18,073 nt of DNA, taken from the IMG/VR virus record IMGVR_UViG_2690316325_000011, positions 1 to 18,073 of that record; one strand, given 5' to 3'. This DNA comes from a virus (taxonomy: Duplodnaviria > Heunggongvirae > Uroviricota > Caudoviricetes). Position 1 is the stretch's first letter, and every line of letters starts with the position of its first letter. A program made the position numbers and the translations under genes. Under the pieces are notes generated by a model, which searched no databases, was not told the DNA's origin, and saw only the letters and a program-made list of their open reading frames with translations. This document shows, in pieces, positions 6,072 to 13,349 of the stretch.

Positions 6072-6380
6072 TCAATATACGATCTGGTCTACATGATCAC
6101 CAAAATCATCGTCGTCGTCCTCATCGCCACCATCTACTGCTGGCCAATCAACAAACCAGCCAGCGTAAAGATGCAGCGTTCGGAGAACATCACTTGCGGG
6201 AGCATCAAGGGTGTTAACGAATCCCATATAGCTATTGGGATTTGCCCCAGCTATGGCTTCAGCGATCATGTCCTCGGTAATGTCACCGGAGATAATGCTT
6301 AAACGCCCGGAAACTTCTTCATTATCATCAAATTCGATAATGGCATCTCCGCCTAATGGCGCTGCGATTTTAATCTGCAT
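6072..6380 (-). CDS. Small highly acidic hypothetical protein, last gene of the minus-strand operon
   Basis: 102 aa; ATG at 6380 overlaps the stop of the 995-aa gene by 11 nt. C-terminus DGGDEDDDDDFGDHVDQIVY. Terminator directly downstream. Confidence 0.5.
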   Translation of the reverse strand: MQIKIAAPLGGDAIIEFDDNEEVSGRLSIISGDITEDMIAEAIAGANPNSYMGFVNTLDAPASDVLRTLHLYAGWFVDWPAVDGGDEDDDDDFGDHVDQIVY

Positions 6381-9357
6381 TATTTAGCTCCTTTGCCACA
6401 CCTAATAACAGTTCCAGCAATCCGTCACCATTCATCAGTGATGCGGCAGCGGCCTCTTTGTCATGATACAACTGAAGAGCCATAGAGAATACTTCCGTTG
6501 CTGACGTTTTGGAAATAGTCGGTGATTTCTGCCGAATTTTCCCGGTGTTACTTACTGAGGCTGGCGGGTATACCTTCGCCATATAAATATTACTCAATCG
6601 AGATCTGAAGCACCATTCAGGCTTGCCACGCCCACCGATATTGACGAAAGATGGCTTATCCCCTTCAACATTGGCCTTCAGGAATGACCGGGCTTTCTCT
6701 AACAAACCAGGGTTACTGTACTCAAGATGATGACCCAGCTCGTGCCACAGTGCACTTGCATTTTCATCGTTCAAATTGACAGCAACAACACCATTTAGAT
6801 TTGCATATGCCCTTCCCTGGTGGTGAACCACTTTTGATAAGGTCGATATTTTCCCGCCGGTCAGGCGATAAATATCAGCAAGTTCCTTGCGCAGGTCTAT
6901 CCCACCATTCTGTCCAGCGCGGGCTTCTTCCACTTCTTCCGTGATAAAAGAGTCGGCCCACTCAAGAGCTTTTTCTTCAGATACGGATGAGTTTGCGATC
7001 GCACTGTTCATGGCAGATAACACTTTCTCGTGGACCGAACCCATACTTCGCTGATTCATTTGCCAGCGTGTCTGCGGGTTATATGAGAATCGCTTAAGTA
7101 GTTGGTCAAGCTGCTCAAGTTCTTCTTCACTGACATACTTTTTAGCCTCACCAATAATGCCAGGGAGAATATTGCCGTTAGGATTAAACGCTCGCGACAG
7201 GAAGAGTTTCAGCGCCCCCATGCCCTCCGATGCTTCAATATCACCAATAACCCGGTTAACAATGGCCGCACTCTTCGGATTAGCATCCGCCAACGCTCTG
7301 GCTACGATTTGCAGGGACGATACGACCTCACGCTGCATATCAGTCCTGATCTCATCAATAAACTCTGGCGTTATGCCGTGCTCTTTAAGGATATCCCGGC
7401 CTTCCGCCGTTACCCCATCGATATCACCGACATGTTTATTAACACGACTTTGCAATGCCTTAAATGCCTTCAGAATTCCACGGGCATCATCCGCTTTACT
7501 AACGGCCTTCCTGAATGCTGGCAAGAAGTCTGAGTTAACCTCATTTTGTTGATCGGCCCACTGAATGGAGGCTTCTTTCATCTCGTCCAGAGTCAGATCA
7601 CCCAACGCGGTATGGTCTGTGAATATGAGCGACAACCTCTGAACCATTTCTGCCAATGGTGATGCCGAATGCGCCGCGCTAAGGAATGCTTTCACCCTGG
7701 TTGGGCGAATGGAAAACCAGTCAATAGCTGGTGGCATATCTCCGTTTTTTATCGCCTGCGCTATCTCGTCAAAGCCATCGCGCCCAAGGGAGGATGCGTG
7801 ATTTAACAAGCCGCGAAGTAACGAATTGCTGATACCGAATAATCGGCACCATTTTTTCACGTCGGCAACAGGCATTCGAACAAAATGCGCAAGCACTTGT
7901 ACAAGCTGTTCATCCTGGGGATCTGTGCGGGAAAGCAGCCTGATCAGATGAATAATGTCTTTGATGCCGGATGCCCGATGTAATAGCAAACTGGTATACG
8001 GAGCAACACCGTTGTAACTACCGCCGGAAACGGACTCGAAAAGACCGCCGGATATCCCTTGCATGCCTTCGTTTTCCAGTTCCTGAGACACCTGGCGAAG
8101 GATATCCTGTAACGACACATCGCCGCCGCCAAACATATCCCCCAGCGCCTGGCCCTGGTGCTGTAACTCATCATTGATACGTTGAGCCATCAACTTAAAG
8201 GCGGTGGCCATACGCTTCGCGCTACGGTTATTCGCGACGATGAACAACGCGAGTGCTTTCACTTCCGGGGCCGTTTCGCTGAACATATCCCCCTGAGCAA
8301 TAACATCGGTAATATGCTGGCCTGACTCCTTCGATTGCCTTACCAGGTCTACCGCATCTTTCAATGCCGCCAGCGCCTTTTTATCGAGGCTATCCGCTGT
8401 CTCAATGCCATCAACAATAGTTGTCACAGCCTGCTTGTGCGCTTCTCCTGATAAAGCCTGCATCTGGACAAAATCATTGGCTGCCGCATTAAGCGCCGTC
8501 AGAACATTACGCATATCCGGATCAGGTTCTTCTGCAACCATCCTTACCAGGCGCGCATCCTTATATGCCTTGGCAAAGATCGCGTTTTGTATACGGTCTA
8601 CAAGTTGCCGTGTTGGTCGCCCATCTTCAGTTACAAGGCCAGCCGCCTGTGTGGCACCAACTTGCGTCATGAATCCGCGAATAAACGCGTCATTACGGCG
8701 GCTAAGCAGATCTCCGCTTTCTGACGGATTAAACAGCGCCATCATCGCCGGTGTTATGCTGTCGGCATCAACAAAAGCCTTTTCACTGGCTGCCATTTCC
8801 TGAAGATCAGAAATATTTGAGTCCTTGGCAAACTGAACGCGGTCAACCTTAGTTAACCGGCGGCGCACCAGTACCGGAGCCGTCATTGATTCAACCTTTT
8901 CAGGAGGTATGCCGAATTCGGTCGCATGTTCAATCAGGTACTCACGATACCGATCCGCATTGCCGTCCTGATAGGCTTTGATGATCCCCATAGTCCGTCC
9001 ATTACCTGACTCAACGGCATTGTCCTCACCAATTATCGGCGCGCCATGGCTGGATAAACCGGAATCGGTAAGCTGAGCAGGCCGCAAATCTTTGGATATC
9101 TGGTTAACCTGAAGAAGGCTGGATGCGCGGGTCCGGTCGCGCGGCTGAAGTTCCTGGGGATAGTCAGGATTAATTTTCCCATCCAGAGTATTGGATATCA
9201 AAAGAGCTGAGGCATCGACGATATCAAACGCTGTTTTTACCTCGTCTCCCTTCGCTGTCACCACATACGAAACCCGCCCATAATCGGGCAGGTTCTTTAG
9301 CAGCTCGATCAGCGTTTCTATGCTGGTGGCCATTACCACCTGATCGCTTAAGCTCAT
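6370..9357 (-). CDS. ddrB: Large virion-associated protein, DdrB-like by operon position; contains an HExxH motif
   Basis: 995-aa ORF in the operon position after the DarA-like and DdrA-like genes. Sequence-level homology to P1 DdrB was not verified; the call rests on size and gene order. HELGH at residues 872..876 (nt 6730..6744). Confidence 0.45.
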   Translation of the reverse strand: MSLSDQVVMATSIETLIELLKNLPDYGRVSYVVTAKGDEVKTAFDIVDASALLISNTLDGKINPDYPQELQPRDRTRASSLLQVNQISKDLRPAQLTDSGLSSHGAPIIGEDNAVESGNGRTMGIIKAYQDGNADRYREYLIEHATEFGIPPEKVESMTAPVLVRRRLTKVDRVQFAKDSNISDLQEMAASEKAFVDADSITPAMMALFNPSESGDLLSRRNDAFIRGFMTQVGATQAAGLVTEDGRPTRQLVDRIQNAIFAKAYKDARLVRMVAEEPDPDMRNVLTALNAAANDFVQMQALSGEAHKQAVTTIVDGIETADSLDKKALAALKDAVDLVRQSKESGQHITDVIAQGDMFSETAPEVKALALFIVANNRSAKRMATAFKLMAQRINDELQHQGQALGDMFGGGDVSLQDILRQVSQELENEGMQGISGGLFESVSGGSYNGVAPYTSLLLHRASGIKDIIHLIRLLSRTDPQDEQLVQVLAHFVRMPVADVKKWCRLFGISNSLLRGLLNHASSLGRDGFDEIAQAIKNGDMPPAIDWFSIRPTRVKAFLSAAHSASPLAEMVQRLSLIFTDHTALGDLTLDEMKEASIQWADQQNEVNSDFLPAFRKAVSKADDARGILKAFKALQSRVNKHVGDIDGVTAEGRDILKEHGITPEFIDEIRTDMQREVVSSLQIVARALADANPKSAAIVNRVIGDIEASEGMGALKLFLSRAFNPNGNILPGIIGEAKKYVSEEELEQLDQLLKRFSYNPQTRWQMNQRSMGSVHEKVLSAMNSAIANSSVSEEKALEWADSFITEEVEEARAGQNGGIDLRKELADIYRLTGGKISTLSKVVHHQGRAYANLNGVVAVNLNDENASALWHELGHHLEYSNPGLLEKARSFLKANVEGDKPSFVNIGGRGKPEWCFRSRLSNIYMAKVYPPASVSNTGKIRQKSPTISKTSATEVFSMALQLYHDKEAAAASLMNGDGLLELLLGVAKELNNAD

Positions 9358-9369
9358 CCCTGTTACGCC

Positions 9370-12685: not shown

Positions 12686-13011
12686 TTCCCGCCTCCCTTT
12701 TTCACCAAACTTGTAAGAACATTCAGAATGCTATCGATATTCACTCGTTTCATCCCTGAAATCACCTCATGACCGTTATTGCTGGCTATCGTTACCATTA
12801 AGTACGTAATTGATAACTCCCAGCCCTCGTGTTGCCCCAATAGGTACGCCACCGCGCCAGCTGTCACTGCAACAAAGATCTCCGTAACCAATCCCAACAA
12901 ATTGCCAGACTGGCGACCGTCTCGGACATCCATCAGGAACGTGCCTATCCCACCAATTACTGAAAGCAGGAGCGCAATAGCAACTGGAGCTAATTCCTGT
13001 GTGTCAAGCAC
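12682..13011 (-). CDS. lydA: LydA-like holin
   Basis: 109 aa; GTG start with AGGAGGG SD. Two to three predicted transmembrane segments (LAPVAIALLLSVIGGIGTFLM, IFVAVTAGAVAYLLG) and charged C-terminus (KKGGGK). Confidence 0.5.
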   Translation of the reverse strand: MLDTQELAPVAIALLLSVIGGIGTFLMDVRDGRQSGNLLGLVTEIFVAVTAGAVAYLLGQHEGWELSITYLMVTIASNNGHEVISGMKRVNIDSILNVLTSLVKKGGGK

Positions 13012-13085
13012 AAGTTCCCTCCTACGTTGTCAGGAGGTAATGGTATGCAAAGTAACTTCTCAACCGGTTATGTTGCATAAGAGAC

Positions 13086-13349
13086 TTACCTATTCAACCG
13101 ACTTTTGGAACCTTCAATAATAAGCCTGCTATTGGCGCTGAAAATAAGAACCATGCAGCTCTGAAGGCTTTCATTCATATCCTTATATTCCGCGAGATAC
13201 ATGCCAATAAAGCCAGCAAGTACGGCGGAAATACATTCGGCCAGCAATTTCTTGCATGAAGACTCGTAACGGTTTTCACATAGCCCACTCAAATACGAAT
13301 ACACCCCACCAAGAAGGGATAACATCACGATATGTACATAAAATGTCAT
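13086..13349 (-). CDS. Small two-segment membrane protein (holin-like), first gene of the minus-strand operon
   Basis: 87 aa; ATG at 13349 with AGGT SD. Hydrophobic segments HIVMLSLLGGVYSYL and AVLAGFIGMYL. Confidence 0.45.
   Translation of the reverse strand: MTFYVHIVMLSLLGGVYSYLSGLCENRYESSCKKLLAECISAVLAGFIGMYLAEYKDMNESLQSCMVLIFSANSRLIIEGSKSRLNR

What the first reader, a model, noticed from the sequence alone, without database searches (positions are those of the whole stretch)
6072..13349. Dar-type virion-protein operon fused to holin/antiholin-like genes, with an internal Hdf/DarA paralogy
Eight co-oriented, overlapping genes run from three small membrane proteins through a 203-aa protein and a 639-aa protein that share a KNSAKFQ-containing segment, then 121-aa, 995-aa and 102-aa proteins. 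This matches my recollection of the P1 lydA-lydB-hdf-darA-ddrA-ddrB arrangement, whose products are packaged in the capsid to protect injected DNA from type I restriction. The last small acidic gene is not one I can place.
Basis: partly seen in the sequence, partly recalled or inferred. Interest (0 to 1): 0.5.

Follow-up and report, generated by a model that had tools for sequence, protein, structure and literature searches.

The report
Phage P1 darA antirestriction/lysis operon

Summary
The window is a P1-like phage-plasmid of E. coli, 97-99% identical in DNA to P1 and its relatives. The eight minus-strand ORFs at 6072-13349 are lydC, lydA, lydB, hdf, darA, ddrA, ddrB and hxr. Seven are 96-100% identical in protein to P1; LydC is 57% identical to P1's. 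The Lpa-dependent late promoter LPdar is conserved base for base at 13040-13058. It lies between lydC and lydA, so the operon proper starts at lydA.

The Hdf/DarA paralogy is real and already documented. Both proteins carry Pfam DarA_N, the gene name means "homolog of DarA fragment", and cryo-EM structures of the DarA-Hdf pair exist (9ukm, 9vz0). Virion packaging of Hdf, DarA, DdrA and DdrB is published, as is their role in defence against type I restriction.

I found no helix-turn-helix match. The predicted fold is alpha+beta and matches no solved or viral structure. In diverged P1-like elements (30-46% identity) the hxr start overlaps the ddrB stop by 11 nt in all nine contigs checked. That suggests an uncharacterised DdrB-coupled partner.

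Verdict: already known, low interest.

The parts
13086..13349 (-). lydC, a holin homologue (87 aa). It lies upstream of the late promoter and belongs to a diverged allele.
   Evidence: Pfam Phage_holin_3_3 at 1.2e-09 and PHROG 1527 holin at 6e-28. It is 57% identical to P1 LydC, and its DNA differs from that of phage vB_EcoM-813R1 at one position. It has two transmembrane-like segments.
13040..13058 (-). LPdar, the Lpa-dependent late promoter (-22 box AAGTTACTT, -10 TACCAT)
   Evidence: The 19 nt are identical to the annotated P1 LPdar and occur once in the window.
12682..13011 (-). lydA, holin (109 aa)
   Evidence: 100% identical to P1 LydA. Pfam Phage_holin_3_3.
12242..12685 (-). lydB, LydA antagonist / antiholin-like protein (147 aa)
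   Evidence: 145/147 identical to P1 LydB. Pfam LydB PF16084 at 8e-104. One N-terminal hydrophobic segment.
11653..12264 (-). hdf, a DarA_N-domain paralogue of DarA and an internal head protein (203 aa)
   Evidence: 200/203 identical to P1 Hdf. Pfam DarA_N at residues 13-109, 1.5e-21. PDB 9ukm_H full length.
9732..11651 (-). darA, the defence-against-restriction internal head protein (639 aa)
   Evidence: 628/639 identical to P1 DarA. Pfam DarA_N at residues 66-204 and DarA_C at 411-472. NCBIfam equivalog NF052326 at 1091 bits. PDB 9ukm_I.
9370..9735 (-). ddrA, a small acidic virion protein (121 aa)
   Evidence: 116/121 identical to P1 DdrA. PHROG 1855 'DdrA-like anti-restriction protein' at 1e-57. 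pI 4.09.
6370..9357 (-). ddrB, with a DdrB-type ParB domain and a C-terminal HExxH metallopeptidase motif (995 aa)
   Evidence: 984/995 identical to P1 DdrB. Pfam ddrB-ParB at residues 36-167, 1.9e-39. HELGH at residue 872.
6072..6380 (-). hxr, a 102-aa acidic protein whose start overlaps the ddrB stop by 11 nt. Its function is unknown and it is not demonstrably Xre-like.
   Evidence: 100/102 identical to P1 Hxr. No Pfam or NCBIfam hit. PHROG 2292 'unknown function'. The 11-nt overlap and AAGGAG/AAGGAA motif are conserved in 9 contigs of diverged relatives.

Best explanation
This is the orthologue of the bacteriophage P1 darA late operon, in a P1-like phage-plasmid of E. coli.

Mechanism, from the P1 literature. 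Late in lytic growth the Lpa-dependent promoter LPdar drives lydA-lydB-hdf-darA-ddrA-ddrB-hxr. LydA is the holin that lets the endolysin Lyz reach the wall, and LydB antagonises it to prevent premature lysis. LydC, just upstream, is a second holin homologue.

Hdf and DarA share a DarA_N domain and form pairs on the inner capsid surface at penton-hexon junctions (55 pairs per head). They influence head size and are required for loading the other Dar proteins: DdrA, DdrB and, from a separate operon, Ulx and DarB. DarA loses an N-terminal piece during maturation, and DdrB is processed, probably by its own C-terminal metallopeptidase. These proteins leave the head with the DNA and protect that DNA in cis from type I restriction (EcoA, EcoB, EcoK, StySA) and BREX.

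What is shown here: gene identity, domain content, promoter conservation and synteny. What is inferred from published P1 work: packaging, ejection and protection.

Hxr is most likely a non-virion partner of DdrB made in coupled amounts, for example an assembly or processing factor or a regulator of the peptidase. It is unlikely to be a repressor. This last point is inference.
For: DNA is 97.2-98.7% identical to P1 and P1-like phages across 94-13653. The P1 RefSeq annotation of the aligned genes and of LPdar fits. Per-protein identity is 96-100% for seven of the eight proteins.

Pfam, PHROG and NCBIfam assignments agree for LydC, LydA, LydB, Hdf, DarA, DdrA and DdrB. DarA and Hdf match the full-length PDB chains 9ukm_I and 9ukm_H. 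LPdar is identical.

Literature:
- Virion mass spectrometry lists Hdf, DarA, DdrA and DdrB as head proteins (PMC9024508).
- Cryo-EM shows 55 DarA-Hdf pairs (PMC12810830).
- A review describes the six-protein Dar system acting in cis (PMC12707154).
- DarA_N is described as shared by DarA and Hdf, and DdrB as ParB plus metallopeptidase (PMC5512222).

The whole lydA-to-hxr cassette is syntenic in elements only 28-45% identical in most proteins (up to 61% locally in DdrB).
Against: Nothing contradicts the identification.

Two caveats apply to this copy. The portal gene prt at the left edge of the window is interrupted by the end of an IS100, so this element may be unable to build virions, and the Dar proteins could then not act. 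The partner operon ulx-darB lies outside the window and could not be checked.

For Hxr there is no functional evidence. It is absent from the published virion protein table and was non-essential in a CRISPRi screen.
Confidence: 0.97

Rival explanations
1. The operon is intact in sequence but functionally idle here. The host element is a defective P1-like plasmid whose portal gene is split by IS100, so no capsids form and no Dar proteins are delivered.
For: Window 1 to about 97 matches the end of IS100 (IS21 family) at 95-97% in more than 2000 plasmids. Homology to P1 prt begins only about 120 codons into the gene.
Against: All eight ORFs are full length and 96-100% identical to P1, so any inactivation is recent. 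The other side of the IS is not in the window, so a second intact prt or a rearrangement cannot be excluded.
Confidence: 0.35
2. Hxr is an Xre-type helix-turn-helix repressor, as the P1 GenBank record suggests ('possible repressor; homolog of Xre').
For: The P1 annotation note reports 28% identity of Hxr residues 23-80 to part of Xre.
Confidence: 0.03
3. Hxr is a free-standing acidic DNA-mimic inhibitor of restriction or another defence system (Ocr/ArdA-like in principle) that merely rides on the operon.
For: It is very acidic (pI 4.05, poly-Asp tail), small, sits in an antirestriction operon and is absent from the published virion protein list.
Against: It is expressed from a late promoter, which is too late to protect incoming DNA unless it is packaged. 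The strictly conserved 11-nt overlap with ddrB argues for stoichiometric coupling to DdrB rather than independent action. It has no fold similarity to known mimics.
Confidence: 0.1

Closest known systems
Bacteriophage P1 darA operon (lydA-lydB-hdf-darA-ddrA-ddrB-hxr; NC_005856 24244-31183) with upstream lydC
   Same: It has the same genes in the same order and orientation and the same late promoter. Protein identity is 96-100% for seven of the eight proteins, and the Hdf/DarA DarA_N paralogy is the same.
   Different: LydC is a different allele: 87 aa against 93 aa, 57% identity. It and the region to its right (invertase, tail-fibre cassettes) resemble phage vB_EcoM-813R1 and other P1-like plasmids rather than P1 itself. 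No IS1 lies between isaA and isaB.
Escherichia phage vB_EcoM-813R1 (ON470617) and P1-like E. coli plasmids such as NZ_CP098199
   Same: These are the best overall matches: 98.7% identity over 82-94% of the window, including the lydC allele and the region beyond 13653.
   Different: In 813R1 the operon is disrupted. An IS200/IS605 (IS609) element lies between ddrA and ddrB, and ddrB and darA are annotated as fragments. In the window all genes are intact.
Diverged P1-like elements from metagenomes (loci L084, L086, L090)
   Same: They carry the same seven-gene cassette: holin, LydB, Hdf (DarA_N), DarA (DarA_N + DarA_C), DdrA-sized protein, DdrB (ddrB-ParB) and an Hxr-like protein. The ddrB/hxr overlap is 11 nt in each.
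   Different: Protein identity is only 28-45% for most genes (up to 61% locally in DdrB). L086 has a HicB antitoxin-like gene inserted between ddrA and ddrB.

Membership tests
P1 Dar antirestriction system, darA-operon half | DarA protein with DarA_N and DarA_C domains | tested here: met
   Pfam PF18788 at 1.7e-42 and PF18789 at 5.7e-17. NCBIfam equivalog anti_RE_DarA at 1091 bits against a cutoff of 350. 628/639 identical to P1 DarA.
P1 Dar antirestriction system, darA-operon half | Hdf, a DarA_N-only paralogue encoded immediately upstream of darA | tested here: met
   Pfam DarA_N at 1.5e-21 on residues 13-109. BLASTP of Hdf against DarA gives 29% over 105 aa, E 9e-4. 200/203 identical to P1 Hdf. 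The hdf stop and the darA start are 1 nt apart.
P1 Dar antirestriction system, darA-operon half | DdrA and DdrB (ddrB-ParB domain plus C-terminal HExxH peptidase) downstream of darA | tested here: met
   PHROG 1855 at 1e-57 for DdrA. Pfam ddrB-ParB at 1.9e-39. HELGH at residue 872. Identity to P1 is 116/121 and 984/995.
P1 Dar antirestriction system, darA-operon half | Late (Lpa-dependent) promoter LPdar upstream of lydA | tested here: met
   The 19-nt LPdar sequence is identical to P1 at 13040-13058 on the minus strand. Its activity was not tested.
P1 Dar antirestriction system, darA-operon half | Products packaged in the head, ejected with the DNA, and protective in cis against type I restriction | not testable with these tools
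   This is known for P1 itself (PMC9024508, PMC12810830, PMC12707154). Here it is inferred from 96-99% identity of the four Dar proteins.
P1 Dar antirestriction system, complete | Second operon ulx-darB present in the same genome | not testable with these tools
   In P1, darB lies left of prt. In the window that side is cut off by IS100 and the window edge.
Holin superfamily III / LydA family with LydB antagonist | Small two-TM holin of Pfam Phage_holin_3_3 followed by a LydB (PF16084) gene | tested here: met
   LydA and LydC both pass the Pfam gathering score (30.1 and 38.6 bits against 28.4). LydB scores 344 bits. Transmembrane-like segments are present.
Xre-type HTH repressors (for Hxr) | Helix-turn-helix DNA-binding domain (HTH_3 or a related family) | tested here: not met

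The most novel reading that the evidence does not exclude
Hxr is not an Xre-like repressor. It would be a seventh, so far uncharacterised component tied to the Dar system: a small acidic alpha+beta protein of unrecognised fold, made in translational coupling with DdrB. It would act as a chaperone, processing cofactor or inhibitor of the DdrB metallopeptidase, or as a packaged or early-acting acidic effector.

The supporting evidence is conservation of the gene, of its 11-nt overlap with ddrB and of an embedded AAGGAG/AAGGAA motif across P1-like lineages only 30-46% identical.
Probability: 0.3. Interest if true: 0.35.

Novelty: already known. Interest (0 to 1): 0.08.

Why it matters
It matters little as a discovery. 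The operon, its link to lysis genes, the Hdf/DarA paralogy, virion packaging and even the in-situ structure of DarA-Hdf are published for P1, and this copy is 96-100% identical for seven of the eight proteins.

The result is useful as a clean confirmation and for annotation. It places the unplaced last gene as hxr. It also shows that the inherited label "Xre homolog / possible repressor" is unsupported, while the gene's tight, conserved coupling to ddrB makes it a cheap, testable candidate for an additional Dar-associated factor.

Tried and rejected
- **Single-sequence AlphaFold of Hxr.** The model was unusable (pLDDT 38.9) and was replaced by an alignment-based model.
- **Repeat-protein hits.** The exhaustive HMMER search of Hxr also hit long proteins with GD(V/I)TGDG(V/I)AE(I/L) repeats (P0020, P0026, P0027). 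I judged these to be short-motif or compositional matches to residues 23-49, not homology.
- **IMG/VR scan with the Hxr alignment.** The 80 loci kept of 104 relatives were all near-identical P1-like (96-100%), so they added no diversity. Diverged contexts came from exact-protein look-ups instead.
- **Papers not held.** Piya et al. 2017 (PMC6011833) and Lobocka et al. 2004 (PMC523184) are not in the library. Statements about them rest on the papers that cite them and on the GenBank record.
- **Sigma-70 and terminator scans of the region.** Promoter-like sites were fewer than in shuffled sequence and terminator-like sites only modestly more numerous (13 found, 7.7 +/- 2.5 expected), with none placing an operon end.
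Full report
**Observation**

The junctions are +74, -4, -23, +1, -4, +12 and -11 nt. The genes are therefore tightly packed, but not all overlap. The motif KNSAKFQ occurs at residues 107-113 of the 203-aa protein and 202-208 of the 639-aa protein. The first three proteins have hydrophobic transmembrane-like segments, and the last is strongly acidic, with pI 4.05 and 23 D+E against 3 K+R.

**Identity**

Megablast of the whole window against phage records gives 97.2-98.7% identity to P1, P7, SJ46, RCS47 and other punaviruses over positions 94-13653. 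The best overall match is vB_EcoM-813R1. Against plasmids, 48 records cover at least 80% of the window, and the listed best matches are E. coli P1-like plasmids at about 98-99% identity.

The P1 RefSeq record annotates the aligned genes as lydC, lydA, lydB, hdf, darA, ddrA, ddrB and hxr. It places the late promoter LPdar between lydC and lydA. Protein identities to P1 are as follows:

| Protein | Identical residues to P1 |
|---|---|
| LydA | 109/109 |
| LydB | 145/147 |
| Hdf | 200/203 |
| DarA | 628/639 |
| DdrA | 116/121 |
| DdrB | 984/995 |
| Hxr | 100/102 |
| LydC | 54 of 94 aligned columns |

The window's lydC DNA differs from that of vB_EcoM-813R1 at one position. The 19-nt LPdar sequence (AAGTTACTT at -22, TACCAT at -10) is identical to P1 and unique in the window, at 13040-13058 on the minus strand.

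**Independent family tests**

- LydC and LydA pass the gathering score of Pfam Phage_holin_3_3, and LydB matches PF16084 end to end.
- Hdf residues 13-109 and DarA residues 66-204 both match DarA_N, and DarA also matches DarA_C.
- DdrB has the ddrB-ParB domain and a HELGH motif at residue 872.
- PHROGs names Hdf-like and DdrA-like antirestriction families.
- NCBIfam's DarA equivalog scores 1091 bits.
- DarA and Hdf match the full-length PDB chains 9ukm_I and 9ukm_H.
- Direct BLASTP of Hdf against DarA gives 29% identity over 105 residues, E 9e-4.

The paralogy is real, and it is exactly the one already encoded in Pfam and described by Iyer et al. 2017 (PMC5512222).

**What is known**

Virion mass spectrometry lists Hdf, DarA, DdrA and DdrB, plus Ulx and DarB, as head proteins. 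It assigns Hdf and DarA roles in head-size determination and in incorporating the Dar system (PMC9024508). Cryo-EM places 55 DarA-Hdf pairs on the inner capsid surface at penton-hexon junctions, in contact with DNA, and shows they are absent after DNA ejection (PMC12810830). A 2025 review summarises Dar as a six-protein, cis-acting protection against type I restriction and BREX (PMC12707154). DdrB's ParB-like and metallopeptidase domains and its processing are discussed in PMC5512222. A CRISPRi screen scored hxr, ddrB, ddrA, darA, hdf and lydA as non-essential and lydB as essential in that assay (PMC10695390).

**The unplaced gene**

The last ORF is P1 hxr. Its GenBank note says "possible repressor; homolog of Xre", based on 28% identity over about 58 residues. 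I found no support for that.

- There is no Pfam, NCBIfam or PDB sequence match.
- An AlphaFold model built on an 11-sequence family alignment (A2) has mean pLDDT 76.5, about 85 over residues 1-84. It shows a beta-beta-beta-alpha...alpha arrangement with a disordered poly-acidic tail.

Word-indexed search finds only P1-like copies. The exhaustive HMMER search adds about 100-aa relatives at 30-46% identity and one tandem-duplicated form. Invariant positions in the family include P8, G53, V65-L66-R67, W75, W79 and P80.

I looked up the contigs that carry these relatives. The three long ones (L084, L086, L090) hold the same cassette: holin, LydB, Hdf, DarA, DdrA, DdrB and an Hxr-like gene, with most proteins at 28-45% identity to the window's. 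In all nine contigs the hxr-like start overlaps the ddrB stop by 11 nt. An AAGGAG/AAGGAA motif lies within the last codons of ddrB.

This points to translational coupling and a stoichiometric relation with DdrB. That is an inference, not a demonstrated function. Hxr is not in the published virion protein table.

**Caveats for this copy**

Window 1 to about 97 is the end of an IS100 (IS21 family). Homology to P1 prt starts about 120 codons into the portal gene. This element may therefore be defective for virion formation, in which case the Dar proteins would have no vehicle. The ulx-darB operon lies outside the window.

**Verdict**

This is a correct recognition of a textbook operon: already known and of low interest. 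The one modestly new point is that hxr looks like a conserved DdrB-coupled gene of unknown fold rather than a repressor.

Noticed in passing
window 1-97: The left edge of the window is the terminal sequence of an IS100 (IS21 family, istB side). Homology to the P1 portal gene prt starts only about 120 codons in. The portal gene therefore appears interrupted, and the element may be defective.
   Followed up: partly
window 13650-18073: Beyond lydC the window departs from P1. A serine invertase (Resolvase + HTH_7) lies at 13785-14366 on the minus strand. It is followed by at least five tail-fibre C-terminal cassettes that contain a Phage Tail Collar domain (at residue 10 in four of them) and by a tail-fibre assembly gene.

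Five cix/mix-like crossover sites (TTCCCCCAAACCAACGTTTTTATG, up to 3 mismatches, 0 expected by chance) sit at the cassette boundaries. Four are in one orientation (14414, 14886, 15971, 16449) and one is opposite (18028).

This looks like a multi-segment inversion system of the p15B Min type (comparison from memory) rather than P1's single C segment.
   Followed up: partly
window 4045-6040: There is no IS1 between isaA and isaB. An uninterrupted 364-aa ORF at 4946-6040 spans the site where P1 carries IS1, so P1 isaB is the 3' remnant of this gene. Neither this ORF nor the 302-aa isaA ORF has a Pfam or NCBIfam match.
   Followed up: partly
window 8405-8803 (+): This 132-aa ORF, antisense and internal to ddrB, corresponds to the P1 annotation 'iddB'. 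It has no Pfam hit, and nothing here supports it as a real gene.
   Followed up: no
L002 (vB_EcoM-813R1) 9277-15773: In the closest phage record the same operon is damaged. An IS200/IS605 (IS609) transposase gene lies between ddrA and ddrB, ddrB is annotated in two pieces, and darA is shortened. In the window every gene is intact.
   Followed up: no
P0015 (184 aa): One relative of Hxr is a tandem duplication of the whole domain in a single polypeptide. Its genomic context was not examined.
   Followed up: no
L086 4886-5326: In one diverged P1-like element a HicB-like antitoxin gene is inserted on the opposite strand between ddrA and ddrB.
   Followed up: no
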